Sequence record: PZ386977.1
Strand: one strand, 5' to 3'
DNA length: 64,000 bases
Origin: a phage
Part shown: positions 1 to 49,729 of the stretch, piece after piece
Layout: the number at the start of each line of letters is the position of its first letter
Numbering within the stretch: the first letter of the stretch is position 1
Notes under the pieces: model-generated
Seen by the model: only the letters and a program-made list of their open reading frames with translations
The model's database searches: none
What the model was told of the DNA's origin: nothing
Made by a program: the position numbers and the translations under genes

Positions 1-936
1 CTCGGTCTCGTTTTCAAGAGTGAAAATGGTCTCTAAAGGCTTCCACAGTTCTAACAAATTACCTTCAAACTTTTCAGAAGCATAAGCTTCAAGAACTTTC
101 AAAATGTAGTCGGTGCTACCTGTACGTCCTGAAACTTTGAATTGAGTGATACCAATATCATTATAAAGTTTCAAATCTTGAGGACGAACAAAACGAGTTC
201 TCAACCAGTTAAATGGGTCTGTATCACGAGCTTTAATACAGTGCTGCATTGGATATCCGTTTAAGGATTTAGCATCATCAGCTGTAACATCAGTACTATG
301 GAAAATATAGCAAGAGTCACGATAGCTACAATGTGTTGTATACCCTTTACCAGCATTAGAACAGAACTCATTTACAAGAACTTCAAATATTATATTGTTC
401 TTATTGCAAAACTCTGCTGCACGCTTCAGGAAAGAAACTGAACGGTTCTTATGAATTCCGCAACAGACTTTTTTGATGTTATATTGGTCGTGCAAGTATT
501 TGATTTGAGTTACAGCATCGACATGTAGAATTGTTGAAACTTCAATCTCAATGTCTTTATTGACTTCACGAACAATTTCCATAACAACAGGGTTAGCGAT
601 AGTAATACGCCATACGCCTATTGACCAAAGATACTGAACATAATCCTGAATAGCTTTCTTCTTCCACTCGACTAGTTCTCTTTTTGAACCAGGATTTATC
701 GTGTTGAGTGTATAGTTAAAGCAAATACCTAATTCGTTACAACGTTTAACGTAATCTTCTAACATCTTTTTGTCAACGTCAGGAAGCCTAAAATCAGGTC
801 TGGCTGCTACAAAAGCCATTTCTCTTGTAGAGCCATATACTTCGTTTATCAAGCTATTAGGATAGGTTTTATTGAGCTCTACGATTTTATCAAGAAGAGC
901 TAAATCAAAATTCGTTCCGATTTTAAAAGTATTCAT
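1..936 (-). CDS. hypothetical Cys-rich enzyme, 3' end beyond window edge (possibly U32-like TIM-barrel/Fe-S protein; tentative)
   Basis: Minus-strand reading frame from ATG at 936 runs off the window start; translation MNTFKIGTNFDL...; clustered Cys FCSNAGKGYTTHCSYRDSC; absent from ORF track because no stop in window. Confidence 0.35.
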   Translation of the reverse strand, partial: MNTFKIGTNFDLALLDKIVELNKTYPNSLINEVYGSTREMAFVAARPDFRLPDVDKKMLEDYVKRCNELGICFNYTLNTINPGSKRELVEWKKKAIQDYVQYLWSIGVWRITIANPVVMEIVREVNKDIEIEVSTILHVDAVTQIKYLHDQYNIKKVCCGIHKNRSVSFLKRAAEFCNKNNIIFEVLVNEFCSNAGKGYTTHCSYRDSCYIFHSTDVTADDAKSLNGYPMQHCIKARDTDPFNWLRTRFVRPQDLKLYNDIGITQFKVSGRTGSTDYILKVLEAYASEKFEGNLLELWKPLETIFTLENETE

Positions 937-993
937 TTTTTTGCATCTCGCGTTAATTGATGCGATGGTTTTTTGCAGGTCTTACTTAAATTA

Positions 994-1380
994 TTATAGA
1001 TTCGGTTTATATGATTTAAATGTTTCGAATTCGCCTTTATTCATAAGAGCTTTGAATTCGTCAGGACGCATAGCTTTGTCGTCGATAATCCAATCATATA
1101 CTGGTTTATGTGTTAGCAAATTATGGTACTTCAAGCCAATGTTTGCCAAGTTCTGAATCAGACTTGGGAGAATGTCAATTGCTATACGTCCAGGACCTAC
1201 TGACTTCATACCACGAGCAGTGTAAAGCGTTATGGTGTGCCCTGCATCATACAGGGCATTAATGGCGGACACCATTTCGACGTCTGGTTTGAAGTTCACA
1301 TAATCACGATTGTTATTCCATTCCGTGATGCAATCATCGACATCAAAACAAAGATTAAGCATGTTTTCTACACGGTGCAT
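994..1380 (-). CDS. HAD-superfamily phosphatase-like protein
   Basis: FDVDDCIT (motif I-like) and WIIDDK (motif IV-like); ATG at 1380 overlaps upstream stop (TAATG); track ORF 994..1395. Confidence 0.5.
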   Translation of the reverse strand: MHRVENMLNLCFDVDDCITEWNNNRDYVNFKPDVEMVSAINALYDAGHTITLYTARGMKSVGPGRIAIDILPSLIQNLANIGLKYHNLLTHKPVYDWIIDDKAMRPDEFKALMNKGEFETFKSYKPNL

Positions 1381-3065
1381 TAGATTCGTTCCCATTGATG
1401 AGTGATATCGCCACCGATTGGACGATAGGAAACACCAGTTTCTTTATCAGTTAGTACCCATTTACCAGGATTTTTTGTAATCAGAGTAGCCGTTACAGGT
1501 TCTGCTACGTCATAACTAATAGAGCCATCTTGAAGTACACGGCCCATGTTACGTAATTGCTTAGTCAGAAGTTCCATACCTTTATAATATGCGGCTACCG
1601 CTTTAAGTGGATTATTCTTGAAATAACCACCTAATGCAATCCAGATAATTGCTACTGCCAAATGATGATACTCGTTAAACGAACTCATCTTTCCATATTT
1701 GTAAACTAATGGATTGATGTTAATAGTCACATTACAAGTTGTTTCATCAATAATAAACTGACCCCAGGTCGGATTAGCATTGAATTCATCATAACCTGAA
1801 ACAGCATAAAGCACTTTAGCTTCATCATACAATTTTGGCCCGTAAATCTTGGTTTCACCAAAATATCCACGAGGGTCGATAAACTTGACTTCGCCGTTAT
1901 CAGTAATCATAGTATTACTGAAGTTCGGGTCACCATGAATAACAGAGTACTGTCCCTGAGAACGGTTATGATAACGAATAAGATGTTCTAAAGCTTGTTT
2001 CAACATTGGCTTCAGACGTCCAATCTTAGTGTAGTTCACGTGTGTGATTTTACCAAATGAATCAATCAATGGCTGAATGCTTTCACAACGATCAATAACT
2101 TTCGTATAGAACTCTTTAGTGAAATCACGGCGAACAGTTTCAGGACTTACAAAATAAGTGTCTGTGCTGAATTTCAGTGCATCTAAAATTGCATCAACAA
2201 TTTGTGGACGAGCAAGACTTGATTTGGATTTAATATATTCAAATGCCGGCTTACCTTTAATACGTTCCATTTCAAAGTTATTTTCATTAACAGAAACTAA
2301 CTGAGGGACTGAATCTGATTTCACTTTCAAATACCATGAAATCTCATCTTTCTGAAGAGCTCGACCCTGTTCGGTTAATGCGAATTTAGTTACAGTTTCT
2401 TCACCAATTTCAACTGCATTAAAACTACGATTAAGTTCACGAACTTCATGAGCTTTTTCAAGTTTAGGCATATCACCTAAATCAATTATATTCATAAGCT
2501 CTGATTTATTGAATGCGCCGCTGTAAAGGAATTCTACGAAATCACGTCCTTTGCAGTATTCATGAATTTCCTCATCAGTAGAACCCATATAGAATTCCCA
2601 GTCTTTGAACTGATAAATTCCTACAACATTACCACCTGTTGAACCTACGTTAGTGATATTTTCACCATCGAAATTATATCGACATTCATCACCCTTAACA
2701 TAGATTGCGTTAACATTCCAAGACCATGAACCAAAGTCAGGAATAATATCACACCAGTTAACAATTACGTTATGGCCATCTAAATCTTTGTATAATTTAG
2801 CAAGAGCATAAGCAGAACCATACGCTTCATCAACTGTACGAATAGTCACATTGAACCCTTCTTGCTCGCAATAAGCTCGAACAGTTTCAGCAAATTTTGA
2901 ATGAACTACTACAATAATTTCATCTGCGCCAAGGTCAGAATAAATTGTATACAAATTGCTCAGAATAGTGTCTTGTTTATAGTTAACAAGCACCTTAGGA
3001 ATATGGTGCGTTATTGGATACAAACGAGTTGCCAGTCCAGCACCAAGAATAACAGCTTTTTTCAT
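1380..3065 (-). CDS. bifunctional sugar-1-phosphate nucleotidyltransferase / sugar kinase
   Basis: 561 aa; N-terminal ILGAGLATRLYP nucleotidyltransferase G-loop; C-terminal HGDPNFSN and IDPRG kinase motifs (APH/anomeric-kinase type). Confidence 0.7.
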   Translation of the reverse strand: MKKAVILGAGLATRLYPITHHIPKVLVNYKQDTILSNLYTIYSDLGADEIIVVVHSKFAETVRAYCEQEGFNVTIRTVDEAYGSAYALAKLYKDLDGHNVIVNWCDIIPDFGSWSWNVNAIYVKGDECRYNFDGENITNVGSTGGNVVGIYQFKDWEFYMGSTDEEIHEYCKGRDFVEFLYSGAFNKSELMNIIDLGDMPKLEKAHEVRELNRSFNAVEIGEETVTKFALTEQGRALQKDEISWYLKVKSDSVPQLVSVNENNFEMERIKGKPAFEYIKSKSSLARPQIVDAILDALKFSTDTYFVSPETVRRDFTKEFYTKVIDRCESIQPLIDSFGKITHVNYTKIGRLKPMLKQALEHLIRYHNRSQGQYSVIHGDPNFSNTMITDNGEVKFIDPRGYFGETKIYGPKLYDEAKVLYAVSGYDEFNANPTWGQFIIDETTCNVTININPLVYKYGKMSSFNEYHHLAVAIIWIALGGYFKNNPLKAVAAYYKGMELLTKQLRNMGRVLQDGSISYDVAEPVTATLITKNPGKWVLTDKETGVSYRPIGGDITHQWERI

Positions 3066-3106
3066 GTTGTGGTCCTCATTGGTAAGTAGGTGTATTGTAC
3101 ACTATT

Positions 3107-3250
3107 CTAGTTAAAGCATTCATACTTTGCTTGTAGCCCAATCATAATCCATCCGATTATAAGAGTCGGAATCATTACTGGAGCCGTTAAGCTCCAGTAG
3201 ATAGTCATGACAAGCATCAATAGTAAAAGTCCTATTGTTATTGCTTTCAT
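3107..3250 (-). CDS. small hydrophobic membrane peptide (47 aa)
   Basis: ATG at 3250 overlaps TGA of upstream gene (ATGA); MKAITIGLLLLMLVMTIYWSLTAPVMIPTLIIGWIMIGLQAKYECFN; below ORF-track size cutoff. Confidence 0.35.
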   Translation of the reverse strand: MKAITIGLLLLMLVMTIYWSLTAPVMIPTLIIGWIMIGLQAKYECFN

Positions 3251-3882
3251 TGTTCGCCTCGTAACATGGCACCTAGTGAACCGCCTGGATGGAACTTAAG
3301 GAAGTCATTAGAGGTAAATCCACGTTCAGACGAAAGGTTGATAGCGAACGTATCGATAAGCGCTAACAACAATGTAGTGGACATGGTCGGAGCCAGAGAA
3401 TTCTCATCAACCTCTACCGCGATGCCTGTACAGAACGTATAATCAAAAAGAGCTTCGTATTCTTGCGGAATGTCAGGGTTACAATGTAACAGAATCTGTT
3501 TAACCTGAGGACGAATCATACGAAGATGTTTAGCAACACCTATCATTTCTTCAGTCTTACCAGAACGACTGATGTGAACTAATACATCATTAGGTGCAAT
3601 AAATCCTGCGTCGCCATGAGAATAATGCCCGGTGTTCAAATACATGCTAGGAATACCTAGTGAAGCAAAAGTCTCGGAAGCTTTAGTTGCGATATTAGCG
3701 TTCTTACCAACACCTGTAATAATTACTCGGCTTTCATAATTACTCAGTCCAGGGCGACGAAGAGTTTCAAGAATAGCATTATATCGGGCAGAGTTTTGAC
3801 TAATTACTTTAGCCATAGTGGCAAGAGATGAAGCTTGTTTTACGATTGCGTCAATAGCGATAGTGATTGGTGTAGTTTTCAT
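3247..3882 (-). CDS. SIS-domain sugar-phosphate isomerase (GmhA/KdsD-like)
   Basis: 211 aa; ITGVGKNANIA and HISRSGKTEE SIS-type motifs. Confidence 0.7.
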   Translation of the reverse strand: MKTTPITIAIDAIVKQASSLATMAKVISQNSARYNAILETLRRPGLSNYESRVIITGVGKNANIATKASETFASLGIPSMYLNTGHYSHGDAGFIAPNDVLVHISRSGKTEEMIGVAKHLRMIRPQVKQILLHCNPDIPQEYEALFDYTFCTGIAVEVDENSLAPTMSTTLLLALIDTFAINLSSERGFTSNDFLKFHPGGSLGAMLRGEQ

Positions 3883-3922
3883 ATTTCTCTCATTTAATTA
3901 GTTTACCGTCCATGGCATTATA

Positions 3923-6634
3923 TCAAAAATCGAACATATCGAACAGAGATGCTTTCTTCTCGTAATCGAGTTTCGCTGCTGATGTGAATCCTTCAAGTGG
4001 TTTAATAAATGTCTTCTCAAGGAGAACAGTGTAGTCCATCCAATGAAGTACGTCGTCTTTAATTAAATCTGTGATTTCAGTACCAGAAGGCCATGCGATA
4101 CATTTATCACCGAATGGGTTTCCTTCACGTAAAGGCAGAACATATACCTTTTCGCCTTCTACAACTTGTGGAGCATCAATATTACCTTTGATAGCCCGGT
4201 TATACGTCAGAATTCCACGAATATGGAACGGACATTTTGGACCAGGGAATCCACCTACATCATATTTAGCAATGTTATTCGCAGAAGATACCGACGCGAT
4301 GCTAATATAATTCAATTGACGGAATTCTTTTTCAAACTCTTTAAAATATTCTTGTAATGATTCTTCACCTTCTTGAAGCATACGACGAATACATTCTTTA
4401 AGAGCTTTCTGTACCGCTTTAGGAGTTGAAGATTTCTGTGTTTCGAGACCCATGATTTTGAGTTTAGGCTCAGCGTAACGAGTACCTTCCATATCCCACA
4501 CGTTTAATGCGTAACGTTTCTTACCAGTCCAGAATCCACCAATACCTTTAGAGCCAAGTGGAGGACCAGCGATAGCTTCTCGGTCCATGAACATTAAGTG
4601 TTGTTTATTGTTCATGTATTCACACATTTCACGGAAACCTCTATCAATAGCAGGTTCCATACGTTCACGAGCGAACTTATCTAAGAAGTCCACCCAATGG
4701 TTGGTATCACGGAATTTAGATTCACCAACCTTATCAATAATTTTATCAGCAGATACGTAAATAGAGTCTGTATCACCATATAGAACGAAAGCTTCACCTT
4801 CTGTACCACAAACTTCATTCAGATATTCATTAACTTTACGTTCAATCCACTGTAAAGCCATTTGCCCGAATGTTGTGATTGCAGTAGCATTACGCAAATC
4901 ATAATAACGGAACCAAACGTTGCCAAGTGCACCATAAAGTGAGTTGATAAGCAATTTACGGTTAATTTGTGCAGTCATACCTGCAACTTCAGTACGTTGA
5001 GCTCTAAACAACATTTCATTAAGAGATTTAGCAGACAACTTTTTAATCTTTTCTTTAATCTCATCGCTGAAGTCGAAACGATAATCAACATCTAACGGTT
5101 CGTCAACAGAAAGATTAGGATTATGCAATGCCTCTTTAATTATTTCACCATTACGTTGAGCTGCAAGCATGTAACCTTTATGTTCTTTACGTTGATTAAA
5201 GACCTTAGTGATTTCAGTTGGAACTACACCATCACGGTCTTTATAATACATCATGCCATTAGGAGAGCAGCTGTACACATCTGAAGGACGTTCAGCGATT
5301 GCGTTAATATAATCATGCAATGGAGCTACTTTAAACGTTCCTGCTATTGTTTCTGGGCTAATATTCACTTGGCGAATAATACTTGGATACAGAGATGTAA
5401 GGTCGAAACTCATTACATATTTGTATCGATTTGGAATAGGTTCCTTAACAAAAGCGCCAGGATAAGGTTGAACCGGGTGAGAACGACCTTGTGGAATCAC
5501 CTTGTTCTGCTCTTTAAGGCTATTAAAAATAATAGCATCCCATGTTTTAATTGGGCTGAACACAGATTGAATCTGTATCTTAGCATAATAACCCATGTCC
5601 AAACTCAAGTTGATGAACTGGCGCTTAGCATCAATTTGCAATACACGATACACGTCGATGATGTTATAAGAAATATATCGTTGGTGATTGCTTTCACGAA
5701 GCTTAGAAATAGGGCCGTCATATTTCAGTTTACCAACGTTCAATTCAAATTCTGAAATGTAATCCAGAGAATACGACGGTTGATTAGTAAAAGAGAATTT
5801 TTTGTAAAGGTCAATGTAATCAAGAACAGAGATACCGAACAATGTAATGATTTCACGAGAACCATACATGTTTTCGATAACTTTAACACGAGTTTTACGA
5901 TGTGGTGATAAACGTTTCGCAGTAGATTCACCAAAAATATTCTTGATTCTGTTATACACATATGGAATATCAAATGACTCAACGTTCCATCCAGTCAAAA
6001 TGACAGGAGTTTTCTGTTGCCAGAAGTTGAGATATTCCATCAACAATTCTTTTTCGTTATCGAACGGCATATAAATGATTTTATCGATAATTTCAGATGG
6101 AACTTCATCACCACCTTGTTCTTGAAGCTTAGCAGCGATTTCAATAGACCATTCTTCCACATTGCCGTATGGAGAATTCAATAGATCAAATACATAGAAC
6201 CTGTCGTCAATTGAGTCATAATGGGTGATAGCATCAATCGGATGTTTTGCTTGTGACGGCTCAGGGAACCCATCCGGAGATGTTACTTCGATGTCGAAGT
6301 TAGCCACACGAATTTTTGTATGGTCGTATTTGATTTCATAGTTATAAGTGTCAGACAAATACGCCAATTTGAAATCGTCCATGCCAAGTGCTTCAAGTCC
6401 GATATCTTCCATGCGTTTAATCCATTGGGAGGCATCACGCATATTAGCGAACAACTTACGAGTACACGGCTTACCGTAGATATCGAAATATTTCGTGGCC
6501 TGACTTTCTGGACAATGAGCAAACAATGATGGTTTATATTCTACTTCACGAGTACGTTCACGGCCATTAGAATCGATGTAACGTTCAAAAATTGAATCAC
6601 CAATCTGTTCAACCGTTAAGTAAAATTCTTTCAT
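3923..6634 (-). CDS. 43: DNA polymerase, family B (gp43)
   Basis: 903 aa; exo motif FDIEV; polymerase motifs SLYPS, KILINSLYG, YGDTDS, KKRY; N-terminus MKEFYLTVEQIGDSIFERYID matches my recollection of RB69 gp43. Confidence 0.97.
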   Translation of the reverse strand: MKEFYLTVEQIGDSIFERYIDSNGRERTREVEYKPSLFAHCPESQATKYFDIYGKPCTRKLFANMRDASQWIKRMEDIGLEALGMDDFKLAYLSDTYNYEIKYDHTKIRVANFDIEVTSPDGFPEPSQAKHPIDAITHYDSIDDRFYVFDLLNSPYGNVEEWSIEIAAKLQEQGGDEVPSEIIDKIIYMPFDNEKELLMEYLNFWQQKTPVILTGWNVESFDIPYVYNRIKNIFGESTAKRLSPHRKTRVKVIENMYGSREIITLFGISVLDYIDLYKKFSFTNQPSYSLDYISEFELNVGKLKYDGPISKLRESNHQRYISYNIIDVYRVLQIDAKRQFINLSLDMGYYAKIQIQSVFSPIKTWDAIIFNSLKEQNKVIPQGRSHPVQPYPGAFVKEPIPNRYKYVMSFDLTSLYPSIIRQVNISPETIAGTFKVAPLHDYINAIAERPSDVYSCSPNGMMYYKDRDGVVPTEITKVFNQRKEHKGYMLAAQRNGEIIKEALHNPNLSVDEPLDVDYRFDFSDEIKEKIKKLSAKSLNEMLFRAQRTEVAGMTAQINRKLLINSLYGALGNVWFRYYDLRNATAITTFGQMALQWIERKVNEYLNEVCGTEGEAFVLYGDTDSIYVSADKIIDKVGESKFRDTNHWVDFLDKFARERMEPAIDRGFREMCEYMNNKQHLMFMDREAIAGPPLGSKGIGGFWTGKKRYALNVWDMEGTRYAEPKLKIMGLETQKSSTPKAVQKALKECIRRMLQEGEESLQEYFKEFEKEFRQLNYISIASVSSANNIAKYDVGGFPGPKCPFHIRGILTYNRAIKGNIDAPQVVEGEKVYVLPLREGNPFGDKCIAWPSGTEITDLIKDDVLHWMDYTVLLEKTFIKPLEGFTSAAKLDYEKKASLFDMFDF

Positions 6635-48897: not shown

Positions 48898-48974
<77 letters not shown>

Positions 48975-48978
48975 TATT

Positions 48979-49053
48979 TGGCGGACGTGATAGGATTCGA
49001 ACCTATAACCAATCGCTTAACAGGCGATCGCTCTGCCATTGAGCTACACATCC
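48979..49053 (-). tRNA. tRNA-Asn (anticodon GUU), CCA encoded
   Basis: anticodon loop CUGUUAA; T-arm AUAGG-UUCGAAU-CCUAU. Confidence 0.8.
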
Positions 49054-49057
49054 AAAT

Positions 49058-49144
49058 TGGTGGGGAGTGATGGAGTCGAACCACCCGAGTCGCAATGACA
49101 ATGGATTTACAGTCCACACCGCTACCTCTACGGGATAACTCCCC
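49058..49144 (-). tRNA. tRNA-Tyr (anticodon GUA), long variable arm, CCA encoded
   Basis: anticodon loop CUGUAAA; 87 nt; T-arm GGUGG-UUCGACU-CCAUC. Confidence 0.7.
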
Positions 49145-49156
49145 TAATTCATAATT

Positions 49157-49231
49157 TGGTGGCCCTGGGTGGAATTGAACCACCATCTGGCGATTATGAG
49201 TCGCTTGCTTGAACCTTCCAGCTACAGGGCC
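49157..49231 (-). tRNA. tRNA-Ile (anticodon CAU, lysidine-type) or elongator tRNA-Met, CCA encoded
   Basis: anticodon loop CUCAUAA; sits at the T4 tRNA-Ile position. Confidence 0.7.
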
Positions 49232-49232
49232 T

Positions 49233-49308
49233 TGGTGCTGATTGACGGAATCGAACCGCCGACCTTCTCATTACAAGTGAGTTGCTCTACCTACTGAGCT
49301 AAATCAGC
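49233..49308 (-). tRNA. tRNA-Thr (anticodon UGU), CCA encoded
   Basis: anticodon loop CUUGUAA; acceptor GCUGAUU/AAUCAGC. Confidence 0.8.
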
Positions 49309-49313
49309 AAAAC

Positions 49314-49403
49314 TGGCGGAGGCGATAGGATTTGAACCTATGAGTCGCCGGAGCGACTGCCGGTTTTCAAGACCGGTGCATTAAACCACTCTGCCACGCC
49401 TCC
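49314..49403 (-). tRNA. tRNA-Ser (anticodon UGA), long variable arm, CCA encoded
   Basis: anticodon loop CUUGAAA; 90 nt. Confidence 0.8.
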
Positions 49404-49405
49404 AG

Positions 49406-49479
49406 TCTCCATACAAGGATTTGAACCTTGGGCCTCCTGATCCCAAATCAGGCGCTCTACCAAACTGAGCTACACGGAG
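49406..49479 (-). tRNA. tRNA-Pro (anticodon UGG)
   Basis: anticodon loop UUUGGGA; T-arm CAAGG-UUCAAAU-CCUUG; no encoded CCA. Confidence 0.75.
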
Positions 49480-49489
49480 TAAATTAAAT

Positions 49490-49563
<74 letters not shown>

Positions 49564-49568
49564 AAATT

Positions 49569-49655
49569 TGGTGCGAGAAGTGGGACTCGAACCCACAAGG
49601 AAATCATTCCGCAGCATTTTAAGTGCTGTGCCTTTACCAATTTGGCCATTCTCGC
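49569..49655 (-). tRNA. tRNA-Leu (anticodon UAA), long variable arm, CCA encoded
   Basis: anticodon loop CUUAAAA; 87 nt. Confidence 0.8.
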
Positions 49656-49656
49656 G

Positions 49657-49729
49657 CTGGGAATAAAGGACTCGAACCTTTGCATCCTGGAATCAAAATC
49701 CAGTGCCTTACCAACTTGGCTAATTCCCA
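49657..49729 (-). tRNA. tRNA-Gln (anticodon UUG)
   Basis: anticodon loop UUUUGAU; acceptor UGGGAAU/AUUCCCA; abuts tRNA-Leu (dimeric precursor as in T4). Confidence 0.8.

What the first reader, a model, noticed from the sequence alone, without database searches (positions are those of the whole stretch)
1380..3065. Nucleotidyltransferase-kinase fusion with inverted domain order and an APH-type kinase
Seen: the N-terminal G-x-G-x-R-L sugar-1-P nucleotidyltransferase fold is fused to a C-terminal protein-kinase-like domain with the HGDxxxxN and IDPRG motifs of aminoglycoside/anomeric-sugar kinases. Established: HldE has the opposite order and a ribokinase-type kinase; AmgK/MurU and NahK show that APH-like anomeric kinases feed nucleotidyltransferases. 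Inference: an independently evolved, compact single-polypeptide sugar activation enzyme; substrate and nucleotide specificity are unknown.
Basis: partly seen in the sequence, partly recalled or inferred. Interest (0 to 1): 0.65.

Follow-up and report, generated by a model that had tools for sequence, protein, structure and literature searches.

The report
Phage UDP-arabinose kinase–uridylyltransferase (AfhE orthologue)
This gene of an RB69-like coliphage encodes a real two-domain enzyme, a sugar-nucleotide transferase fused to an antibiotic-kinase-like kinase, that helps make the UDP-arabinose the phage puts on its DNA, and it has already been described and biochemically characterised in a 96 % identical phage protein.

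Summary
Window 1380..3065 (-) is an intact 561-aa ORF. It has an N-terminal RmlA/LicC/MurU-type nucleotidyltransferase domain (about residues 1-205), a C-terminal APH/choline-kinase/FN3K-type kinase domain (about 206-507) and a phage-specific tail of about 54 aa. HGDPNFSN and IDPRG are present and invariant in 40 homologues. The N-terminal loop reads GAGLATRL, not a literal G-x-G-x-R-L.

The window is a Mosigvirus (RB69-like). The protein is the unsplit RB69 ORF53_52c, flagged in 2018 as a UDP-arabinose candidate. It is 96 % identical to the phage HY126 protein that the literature calls AfhE. [quoted passage not shown]

It sits between an arabinose-5-phosphate isomerase (SIS) and a mini-HAD phosphatase. 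Pathway: Ru5P → Ara5P → Araf-1,5-P2 → Araf-1-P → UDP-Araf → arabinosyl-5-hydroxycytosine DNA. Two of its points do not hold. The specificity is no longer unknown. The kinase acts on a sugar 5-phosphate, so the two domains do not catalyse consecutive steps.

Verdict: already known, low interest. A residual lead is that the same trio, and HAD–SIS–NT–kinase fusions, are widespread in Bacteria, Archaea and a probable giant virus.

The parts
1380..3065 (-). Whole gene: 561-aa bifunctional nucleotidyltransferase/kinase (orthologue of RB69 ORF53_52c and HY126 'AfhE'); the stop codon is at 1380-1382
   Evidence: ORF list. 96 % identical (542/562) to HY126 XAN60479.1. 99 % and 97 % identical to RB69ORF052c and RB69ORF053c. 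phrog_4098 matches end to end at E = 7.5e-294.
2451..3065 (-). N-terminal sugar-1-phosphate nucleotidyltransferase domain (about residues 1-205). Signature loop GAGLATRLYPITHHIPK is residues 8-24, with GAGLATRL at window 3021-3044.
1545..2450 (-). C-terminal protein-kinase-like (APH / choline-kinase / FN3K type) domain, about residues 206-507. Catalytic loop HGDPNFSN is at window 1914-1937; the Mg-binding IDPRG is at window 1866-1880.
1383..1544 (-). C-terminal tail of about 54 residues (508-561, conserved core T..P.KW.L.D.E....Y). It is present in the phage-type orthologues and absent from most cellular homologues. Function unknown.
   Evidence: Consensus of alignment A1. Most cellular loci match only query residues about 1-505. 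Lower pLDDT of 74-87. A 58-aa stand-alone phage protein matches a 53-column stretch, whose position in the query was not reported (rank 40).
994..1395 (-). Mini-HAD phosphatase (orthologue of RB69 gp51 and HY126 'AfhF'). It overlaps the stop of the NT-kinase gene: by 16 nt from the ATG at 1395, or by 1 nt from the ATG at 1380 that is annotated in HY126.
   Evidence: NCBIfam TIGR01689 'capsule biosynthesis phosphatase' E = 4.3e-13, below its cut-off. 100 % identical over 128 aa to HY126 XAN60478.1. hhalign probability 96 % to the HAD-motif family found downstream of cellular NT-kinase genes.
3247..3882 (-). SIS-domain sugar-phosphate isomerase (KpsF/GutQ/KdsD-type arabinose-5-phosphate isomerase without CBS domains; orthologue of RB69 gp55)
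   Evidence: Pfam SIS 38.8 bits. NCBIfam kpsF E = 1.1e-31 and KdsD E = 9.5e-30, both below the curated cut-offs. phrog_5670 'arabinose 5-phosphate isomerase'.
3107..3250 (-). 47-aa hydrophobic small ORF between the isomerase and the NT-kinase gene. An ORF at the same position is annotated in Bas46 and HY126. Role unknown.
   Evidence: ORF list. Annotated 144-nt CDS at the same position in MZ501056 and PP658200. No Pfam hit.
1..936 (-). First 312 codons of a peptidase-U32-family gene of the same cluster (orthologue of RB69 gp50), cut off by the start of the window
   Evidence: Pfam Peptidase_U32 E = 4.6e-11. The Bas46 orthologue is annotated 'putative enzyme involved in UDP-arabinose biosynthesis'.

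Best explanation
The gene encodes the Mosigvirus orthologue of AfhE (RB69 ORF53_52c / gp52:53). This is a bifunctional enzyme of the phage pathway that makes UDP-D-arabinofuranose for arabinosylation of 5-hydroxycytosine in virion DNA.

Proposed mechanism, step by step:
1. The neighbouring SIS isomerase converts host ribulose-5-phosphate to D-arabinose-5-phosphate.
2. The C-terminal APH/FN3K-like kinase domain uses ATP to phosphorylate the anomeric C1-OH. This gives arabinofuranose-1,5-bisphosphate, and the 5-phosphate keeps the sugar in the furanose form.
3. The translationally coupled mini-HAD phosphatase removes the 5-phosphate.
4. The N-terminal RmlA/MurU/LicC-like domain condenses Araf-1-P with UTP to give UDP-Araf plus PPi.
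5. Phage glycosyltransferases use UDP-Araf on 5-hydroxycytosine DNA.

Shown here: the architecture, the catalytic motifs and their invariance, the folds, orthology to HY126 and RB69, and the conserved linkage to SIS and HAD genes. Taken from the literature: the two enzyme activities and UDP as the carrier. Inferred: which residue does what, and the reason for the bisphosphate route.
For: - Identity of the window: 98.5 % nucleotide identity to Mosigvirus genomes.
- Orthology: the protein is 96 % identical over its full length to HY126 XAN60479.1, in the same gene order. It is 99 % and 97 % identical to the two halves of the mis-split RB69 gene.
- Literature: PMC6024577 showed that RB69 ORF053c and ORF052c are one 561-aa protein and proposed a role in UDP-arabinose synthesis. 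PMC13326640 states that HY126 AfhE is a dual D-arabinose-5-phosphate kinase / UDP-D-arabinose pyrophosphorylase, that AfhF is the Mg-dependent phosphatase acting on Araf-1,5-P2, and that UDP-Araf is the donor used in vitro by the DLP3 glycosyltransferases.
  - Both folds are confident.
  - All expected catalytic residues are invariant in 40 homologues down to 29 % identity.
  - A SIS gene homologous to the phage isomerase abuts the NT-kinase gene in 39 of 80 cellular loci.
  - A mini-HAD family follows it in at least 38 cellular loci.
  - Proteins of 890-955 aa fuse HAD, SIS, NT and kinase domains in one chain.
Against: - No enzymology was or could be done here.
- The primary biochemical paper (He et al. 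2026) is not in the held library. The activities, and the equation AfhE = XAN60479.1, rest on the description in PMC13326640.
- Table 1 of that same paper still lists the alternative order (phosphatase first, then kinase on free arabinose) for the RB69 and DLP3 proteins.
- Sequence and fold do not fix the nucleotide. The closest solved relative of the NT domain is a CTP-using enzyme, LicC.
- The kinase domain is below the gathering score of every Pfam kinase family.
Confidence: 0.88

Rival explanations
1. Free-sugar route, which is the reader's AmgK/NahK analogy. The HAD phosphatase first converts Ara5P to free D-arabinose. The kinase domain then phosphorylates the anomeric OH of the free sugar, and the NT domain uses the product directly, so the two fused domains catalyse consecutive steps.
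Against: The text of the same paper reports, from He et al., that AfhE phosphorylates Araf5P to Araf-1,5-P2 and that AfhF dephosphorylates the bisphosphate. Free arabinose would equilibrate mostly to the pyranose form, whereas the DNA carries furanose. The isomerase / kinase / HAD / NT gene set mirrors the ADP-heptose bisphosphate route.
Confidence: 0.07
2. A LicC-LicA-like enzyme that phosphorylates and then cytidylylates choline, ethanolamine or another small alcohol.
Against: No Choline_kinase Pfam hit even at E <= 0.1. FN3K and APH structures score the same as choline kinases. The gene is flanked by, and in other organisms fused to, a sugar-phosphate isomerase and a phosphatase. The phage DNA carries arabinose, not phosphocholine (PMC6024577, PMC13326640). 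AfhE is reported as a sugar-phosphate kinase.
Confidence: 0.02
3. Same pathway but a different carrier nucleotide: CDP-, GDP-, dTDP- or ADP-arabinose rather than UDP-arabinose.
For: Nucleotide specificity cannot be read from the sequence. The nearest structures use CTP (LicC, IPCT), dTTP (RmlA), GTP (HddC, GMPP) or UTP (MurU, GalU) with similar scores.
Against: AfhE is reported as a UDP-D-arabinose pyrophosphorylase, and UDP-Araf supported in vitro tri-arabinosylation by the DLP3 transferases.
Confidence: 0.03

Closest known systems
AfhE of Escherichia phage HY126 (He et al. 2026, Nat Chem Biol, as described in PMC13326640); equivalent to RB69 ORF53_52c / gp52:53 (PMC6024577) and DLP3 gp82
   Same: 96 % identical over the full length to the HY126 protein. 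97-99 % identical to the RB69 halves. About 57 % identical to the protein of the related Acinetobacter phage DLP1; DLP3 itself was not listed. Same NT + kinase + tail architecture. Same position between the SIS isomerase and the mini-HAD phosphatase, next to the DNA polymerase gene.
   Different: Nothing of substance: 20 substitutions and a one-residue indel, clustered at residues 241-264.
HldE (with GmhA and GmhB) of the ADP-L-glycero-beta-D-manno-heptose pathway
   Same: Same pathway logic. A SIS isomerase makes an aldose omega-phosphate, a kinase adds the anomeric phosphate to give a bisphosphate, a HAD phosphatase removes the distal phosphate, and a nucleotidyltransferase finishes. The kinase and the transferase, steps 2 and 4, are fused in one chain.
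   Different: The domain order is reversed, and both domains are non-homologous. HldE has a ribokinase/PfkB kinase and a PF01467 cytidylyltransferase-fold transferase (own knowledge); no such signal is found here. The sugar is a pentose 5-phosphate and the carrier is UDP.
LicC + LicA (phosphocholine pathway; fused as LicCA in Treponema denticola, recalled from Kent et al. 2004 and not verified here)
   Different: No choline-kinase family signal, no lic operon context, a sugar-phosphate substrate, and an intervening phosphatase step.
AmgK/MurU and NahK (APH-like anomeric sugar kinases feeding a minimal uridylyltransferase)
   Different: They are separate proteins acting on free sugars in consecutive steps. 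The MurU equivalog model scores 24.7 bits against a cut-off of 250.
FKP (Bacteroides) and AFKP80 (Leishmania) bifunctional fuco-/arabino-kinase pyrophosphorylases (own knowledge)
   Same: N-terminal pyrophosphorylase, C-terminal kinase, one chain. AFKP80 also activates D-arabinose.
   Different: Their kinase is of the GHMP type, the substrate is the free sugar in pyranose form, and the carrier is GDP.

Membership tests
AfhE / RB69 ORF53_52c orthologous group (phage UDP-arabinofuranose synthesis) | Full-length sequence orthology with the same NT + kinase (+ tail) architecture | tested here: met
   542/562 identical to HY126 XAN60479.1. 99 % and 97 % identical to RB69ORF052c and 053c. phrog_4098 matches end to end.
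AfhE / RB69 ORF53_52c orthologous group (phage UDP-arabinofuranose synthesis) | Location in the arabinosylation cluster: DNA polymerase, SIS isomerase, small ORF, NT-kinase, HAD, U32, then the ThyA-like hydroxylase | tested here: met
   Window ORFs compared with the Bas46 and HY126 annotations. The ThyA-like gene lies beyond the start of the window.
AfhE / RB69 ORF53_52c orthologous group (phage UDP-arabinofuranose synthesis) | D-Ara5P 1-kinase and UDP-D-Ara pyrophosphorylase activities | not testable with these tools
   Known only from the literature for the HY126 orthologue (PMC13326640).
Sugar-1-phosphate nucleotidyltransferases (Pfam PF00483; RmlA/GalU/MurU/LicC fold) | Family HMM above the gathering score | tested here: met
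   38.4 bits against 21.2, residues 3-99 only.
Sugar-1-phosphate nucleotidyltransferases (Pfam PF00483; RmlA/GalU/MurU/LicC fold) | N-terminal loop GxGTRLxPxTxxxPK with the catalytic Arg and Lys | tested here: met
   GAGLATRLYPITHHIPK, a variant with Ala in place of the second Gly. G10, R14 and K24 are invariant in 40 sequences.
Sugar-1-phosphate nucleotidyltransferases (Pfam PF00483; RmlA/GalU/MurU/LicC fold) | Rossmann-like alpha/beta fold of about 200-250 residues | tested here: met
Sugar-1-phosphate nucleotidyltransferases (Pfam PF00483; RmlA/GalU/MurU/LicC fold) | Metal-binding acidic residues in the active site | tested here: inconclusive
   D106, D195 and D198 are invariant, but their equivalence to the Mg-binding aspartates of RmlA or LicC was not checked by superposition.
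APH / choline-kinase / FN3K type protein-kinase-like enzymes (Pfam PF01636 and relatives) | Family HMM above the gathering score | tested here: not met
   APH 14.1 bits against 23.2; Fructosamin_kin 16.9 against 22.4; EcKL 16.1 against 22. Several homologues do carry precomputed PF01636 hits.
APH / choline-kinase / FN3K type protein-kinase-like enzymes (Pfam PF01636 and relatives) | Catalytic loop HxDxxxxN, downstream Mg-binding Asp, beta3 Lys and alphaC Glu | tested here: met
   H377-G-D379-PNFS-N384, I-D397-PRG, K227 and E241 are all invariant. The assignment of K227 and E241 rests on their position in the predicted strand and helix and is inferred.
APH / choline-kinase / FN3K type protein-kinase-like enzymes (Pfam PF01636 and relatives) | Bilobal kinase fold with a helical substrate-binding C-lobe | tested here: met
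HldE (bifunctional heptose-7-P kinase / heptose-1-P adenylyltransferase) | N-terminal PfkB/ribokinase kinase and C-terminal PF01467 transferase | tested here: not met
   No PfkB or CTP_transf_like hit at E <= 0.1. The folds found are RmlA-like and APH-like. The protein works like HldE but is not a member.
LicC-LicA phosphocholine activation | Choline-kinase family signature and a lic operon context | tested here: not met
   No Choline_kinase Pfam hit. The neighbours are SIS, HAD, U32 and the DNA polymerase.
AmgK/MurU | MurU equivalog model above its cut-off; separate kinase acting on a free sugar | tested here: not met
   NF045761 scores 24.7 bits against 250. The substrate could not be tested here.

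The most novel reading that the evidence does not exclude
The phage enzyme may be the only characterised member of a much larger and largely unannotated cellular pathway family. NT-kinase genes with an abutting SIS (or cupin) isomerase and a mini-HAD phosphatase occur in Burkholderiales, Campylobacterales, Cyanobacteria (for example Trichodesmium erythraeum IMS101 and Prochlorococcus), Clostridia, Thermotogota, CPR bacteria and several archaeal phyla. All four activities are fused as HAD-SIS-NT-kinase in 890-955-aa proteins, including one on a probable giant-virus contig and one in the transcriptome of the amoebozoan Ceratiomyxa. If these make NDP-D-arabinofuranose or related NDP-pentofuranoses through a 1,5-bisphosphate, this would be a general and so far unrecognised route to furanose donors for surface glycans, distinct from the mycobacterial DPA route and from mutase routes. 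The phage-specific tail of about 54 aa could be a viral addition, for example for complex formation. He et al. 2026 could not be read here and may already cover part of this.
Probability: 0.35. Interest if true: 0.5.

Novelty: already known. Interest (0 to 1): 0.2.

Why it matters
This enzyme supplies the activated arabinose for the arabinosyl-5-hydroxycytosine hypermodification. That modification makes RB69-like phages resistant to many restriction enzymes and shapes their sensitivity to Type IV and other defence systems (PMC13326640, PMC13390438). That biology is interesting, but it has been published, so the finding adds nothing new for this gene. Three things may still have value:
- the bisphosphate route is a clean case of convergent pathway design with ADP-heptose synthesis;
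- the gene trio and its fusions in cellular genomes could guide annotation of proteins now labelled hypothetical, 'GlmU', 'choline kinase' or 'mannose-1-phosphate guanylyltransferase';
- the enzyme is a practical one-pot tool for making UDP-Araf.

Tried and rejected
- Literal search for G-x-G-x-R-L: absent. The loop is GAGLATRL.
- Single-sequence search of the PDB found only nucleotidyltransferases, no kinase. A profile of the C-terminal domain was needed.
- The fold search could not discriminate sugar kinase from choline kinase. This line was rejected as a way to decide the substrate.
- The primary papers (He et al. 2026; Mahler et al. 2025) are not held. Text searches for AfhE/AfhF, UDP-D-arabinose and LicCA returned only the NAR 2026 paper or nothing useful.
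- phmmer and jackhmmer with the phage HAD found no cellular partner. Profile-profile comparison did.
- The afdb50 fold library was unavailable.
- The promoter and terminator scan around the gene was not above the shuffled background for promoters (9 found against 11.2 expected), so nothing was concluded about transcription.
- Considered and rejected: the long ORF as a sequencing or frameshift artefact. It was the historical RB69 entry that was wrongly split. This window and 365 phage records have the intact gene.
Full report
**What is there.** Window 1380..3065 on the minus strand is a single ATG-to-stop ORF of 561 aa. Downstream neighbours:
- A 133-aa ORF at 994..1395 overlaps the stop codon of the gene.
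- Beyond it lies a peptidase-U32-family gene that is cut by the window start (1..936).

Upstream neighbours:
- A 47-aa hydrophobic ORF (3107..3250).
- A 211-aa SIS-domain protein (3247..3882).
- A gene for a family-B DNA polymerase, then the clamp-loader and clamp genes.

Bases 900-4000 of the window are 98.5 % identical to Mosigvirus genomes, the RB69-like T-even coliphages.

**Checking the observation.**
- *N-terminal domain.* Pfam places NTP_transferase on residues 3-99, above the gathering score. The signature loop is GAGLATRLYPITHHIPK. The loop is the standard GxGTRLxPxTxxxPK with Ala replacing the second Gly.
- *Conservation.* In an alignment of 40 homologues down to 29 % identity, G10, R14, K24, D106, D195, D198, K227, E241, H377, G378, D379, N384 and D397-G400 are all invariant.
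- *Kinase family signal.* For this sequence the kinase-like Pfam families reach only sub-threshold scores. A profile of the C-terminal domain finds APH(2'')-Ib and APH(2'')-IIa among solved structures at E about 5e-6.
- *Structure.* An AlphaFold2 model built on the 40-sequence alignment is confident (pLDDT 93.4, pTM 0.90).

**What it is.** The gene is not new.
- Thomas et al. 2018 (PMC6024577) found that RB69 ORF053c and ORF052c had been split by a one-base sequencing error. They re-sequenced the region, expressed the 561-aa product 'ORF53_52c', and proposed a role with the SIS protein ORF055c in making UDP-arabinose.
- My structure search of viral proteins returns exactly those two RB69 half-proteins as best hits, at 99 % and 97 % identity.
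- Lee et al. 2026 (PMC13326640) showed that RB69 DNA carries beta-D-Araf-3-alpha-D-Araf linked to 5-hydroxy-deoxycytidine. They modelled gp52:53 as a MurU-like N-terminal domain plus a kinase C-terminal domain. They also report, citing He et al. 2026 (Nat Chem Biol), that the phage HY126 protein AfhE is a dual D-arabinose-5-phosphate kinase / UDP-D-arabinose pyrophosphorylase, and that AfhF is the Mg-dependent phosphatase that converts Araf-1,5-bisphosphate to Araf-1-phosphate.
- HY126 is in the phage collection. Its 562-aa protein at the same position is 96 % identical to the window protein. Its downstream HAD protein is 100 % identical over 128 residues.
- The BASEL phage Bas46 already annotates the orthologue as 'putative enzyme involved in UDP-arabinose biosynthesis'.

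**How it most likely works.** Host ribulose-5-P is isomerised to D-arabinose-5-P by the SIS protein, which resembles KpsF/KdsD (E about 1e-30). The C-terminal kinase domain phosphorylates C1 to give Araf-1,5-P2. The mini-HAD phosphatase removes the 5-phosphate. The N-terminal domain couples Araf-1-P to UTP.

The activities come from the literature. The residue roles (K227/E241 ATP lysine-glutamate pair, D379 catalytic base, N384/D397 metal ligands; R14/K24 and the invariant aspartates in the transferase) are inferred from invariance and fold.

The two fused domains thus catalyse steps 2 and 4, separated by a step on another protein. This is exactly the situation in HldE of the ADP-heptose pathway, where GmhA is a SIS isomerase and GmhB a HAD phosphatase. 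The kinase and transferase folds here are unrelated to those of HldE: no PfkB or PF01467 signal appears. Its AmgK/NahK picture of a free-sugar kinase feeding the transferase directly is probably not.

**Independent support from comparative genomics.**
- The protein database search found about 50 phage orthologue clusters (48-99 % identity). It also found many 500-550-aa cellular homologues, and proteins of 890-955 aa whose domain order is HAD-SIS-NT-kinase.
- One of those long proteins lies on a 103-kb contig among Rpb2, Rpb10 and MutS-HNH genes, a giant-virus-like set. Another comes from the Ceratiomyxa transcriptome.
- A scan of one genome per GTDB species returned 80 loci across Bacteria and Archaea. 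Most cellular loci match residues about 1-505 only, so they lack the phage tail.
- In 39 of these 80 loci a homologue of the phage SIS protein directly abuts the NT-kinase gene.
- In 58 of the 80 loci a 100-200-aa ORF starts at the NT-kinase stop. 38 of the 40 ORFs in the 115-145-aa range form one family with DxDGT and LLTAR HAD motifs. This family matches the phage mini-HAD profile at 96 % probability, E = 4.6e-9.
- A Burkholderiales variant replaces SIS by ribulose-phosphate 3-epimerase plus a cupin/PMI-like isomerase. About 788-aa NT-kinase-cupin fusions also exist.

These gene-fusion and neighbourhood links argue strongly for a sugar-phosphate pathway and against the choline-kinase reading, which fold similarity alone cannot exclude.

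**Rivals.**
- Free-sugar order (phosphatase first) still appears in Table 1 of PMC13326640. It conflicts with that paper's own text and with the furanose form of the product. I give it about 0.07.
- A LicC/LicA-like phosphocholine enzyme is suggested only by nearest-structure names. It is contradicted by context and by the absence of a choline-kinase signature (about 0.02).
- A different carrier nucleotide cannot be excluded from sequence. It is contradicted by the reported UDP-Ara activity and by the use of UDP-Araf by the DLP3 transferases in vitro (about 0.03).

**Limits.** I could not read He et al. 2026 or Mahler et al. 2025. The activities, and the mapping of the name AfhE to the HY126 gene, are therefore second-hand. 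The LicCA, FKP and AFKP80 comparisons rest on my own recall.

**Verdict.** Its functional inference is right in outline but outdated and wrong in one mechanistic detail. The gene is already known and characterised, so novelty is 'already known' and interest is 0.2. The most novel reading left open concerns the widespread cellular, giant-virus and eukaryotic relatives and their four-domain fusions, not this phage gene.

Noticed in passing
window 1-936 (-), cut by the window start; full-length orthologue at L001:1877-3037 (-): A peptidase-U32-family protein (PF01136, E = 4.6e-11; weak UbiU hit for the full-length Bas46 orthologue) sits inside the arabinosyl-5-hydroxycytosine cluster. The U32 family includes the O2-independent hydroxylases RlhA (5-hydroxycytidine in 23S rRNA), TrhP (5-hydroxyuridine in tRNA) and UbiU/UbiV (own knowledge). 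PMC13326640 mentions those RNA hydroxylation pathways but labels RB69 gp50 only 'sugar or heterocycle reductase'. It could be an anaerobic alternative to the O2/flavin-dependent ThyA-like 5-hydroxy-dCMP synthase.
   Followed up: partly
proteins P0084, P0088, P0089, P0091, P0094, P0096, P0097, P0104, P0106, P0107, P0109, P0118; locus L003:8001-10781: Proteins of 890-955 aa fuse HAD, SIS, nucleotidyltransferase and APH-like kinase domains in that order, which covers all four steps of the phage pathway. P0084 lies on a 103-kb contig between Rpb2, Rpb10, a MutS-HNH gene and a protein kinase, which looks like a giant virus. P0091 is from the Ceratiomyxa fruticulosa (Amoebozoa) transcriptome.
   Followed up: partly
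loci L008-L085 (for example L066 Trichodesmium erythraeum IMS101, L023 Dakarella massiliensis, L015 Micrarchaeota, L063 Prochlorococcus): The NT-kinase gene is widespread in Bacteria and Archaea. A SIS isomerase abuts it in 39 of 80 loci, and a mini-HAD family follows it in at least 38. Burkholderiales loci instead have ribulose-phosphate 3-epimerase plus a cupin/PMI-like isomerase, and NT-kinase-cupin fusions of about 788 aa exist. The products in these organisms are unknown.
   Followed up: partly
window 1383-1544 (-), residues 508-561 of the protein: A conserved C-terminal tail of about 54 residues (T..P.KW.L.D.E....Y......W) is present in the phage-type orthologues and missing in most cellular homologues. 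It has lower model confidence than the rest. A 58-aa stand-alone protein of an uncultured phage (A0A6J5KUX0) matches a 53-column stretch at 38 % identity; whether that stretch is the tail was not checked.
   Followed up: no
window 3107-3250 (-): A 47-aa strongly hydrophobic ORF (MKAITIGLLLLMLVMTIYWSLTAPVMIPTLIIGWIMIGLQAKYECFN) lies between the isomerase and the NT-kinase genes. An ORF at the same position is annotated in Bas46 and HY126. No family hit. It may be a small membrane protein of unknown role in an otherwise cytoplasmic pathway.
   Followed up: no
window 48898-49729 (-): A cluster of 10 tRNA genes (Arg-tct, Asn, Tyr, Met-cat, Thr, Ser, Pro, Gly, Leu, Gln), coinciding with the local G+C peak of 0.415. 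One published Mosigvirus (phage NP) is listed with only 2 tRNAs in PMC13390438, so tRNA content seems to vary within the genus.
   Followed up: no
loci L006 (CAVJPU010000002.1, 167 kb) and L007 (JASFZA010000007.1, 120 kb): Two contigs filed under bacterial MAG bins ('bacterium isolate H07650-L1' and 'Candidatus Izemoplasma') carry the phage-type SIS / NT-kinase with tail / mini-HAD trio at 54 % and 35 % identity. They have T4-like contig sizes and are probably phage genomes mis-binned as bacterial.
   Followed up: no
window 1380-1395 (-): The HAD phosphatase gene overlaps the end of the NT-kinase gene. The ATG at 1395 gives a 16-nt overlap. The ATG annotated in HY126, at window 1380, gives a 1-nt overlap with the stop codon. 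Either way this suggests translational coupling of the kinase/transferase and the phosphatase that acts between their two reactions.
   Followed up: partly
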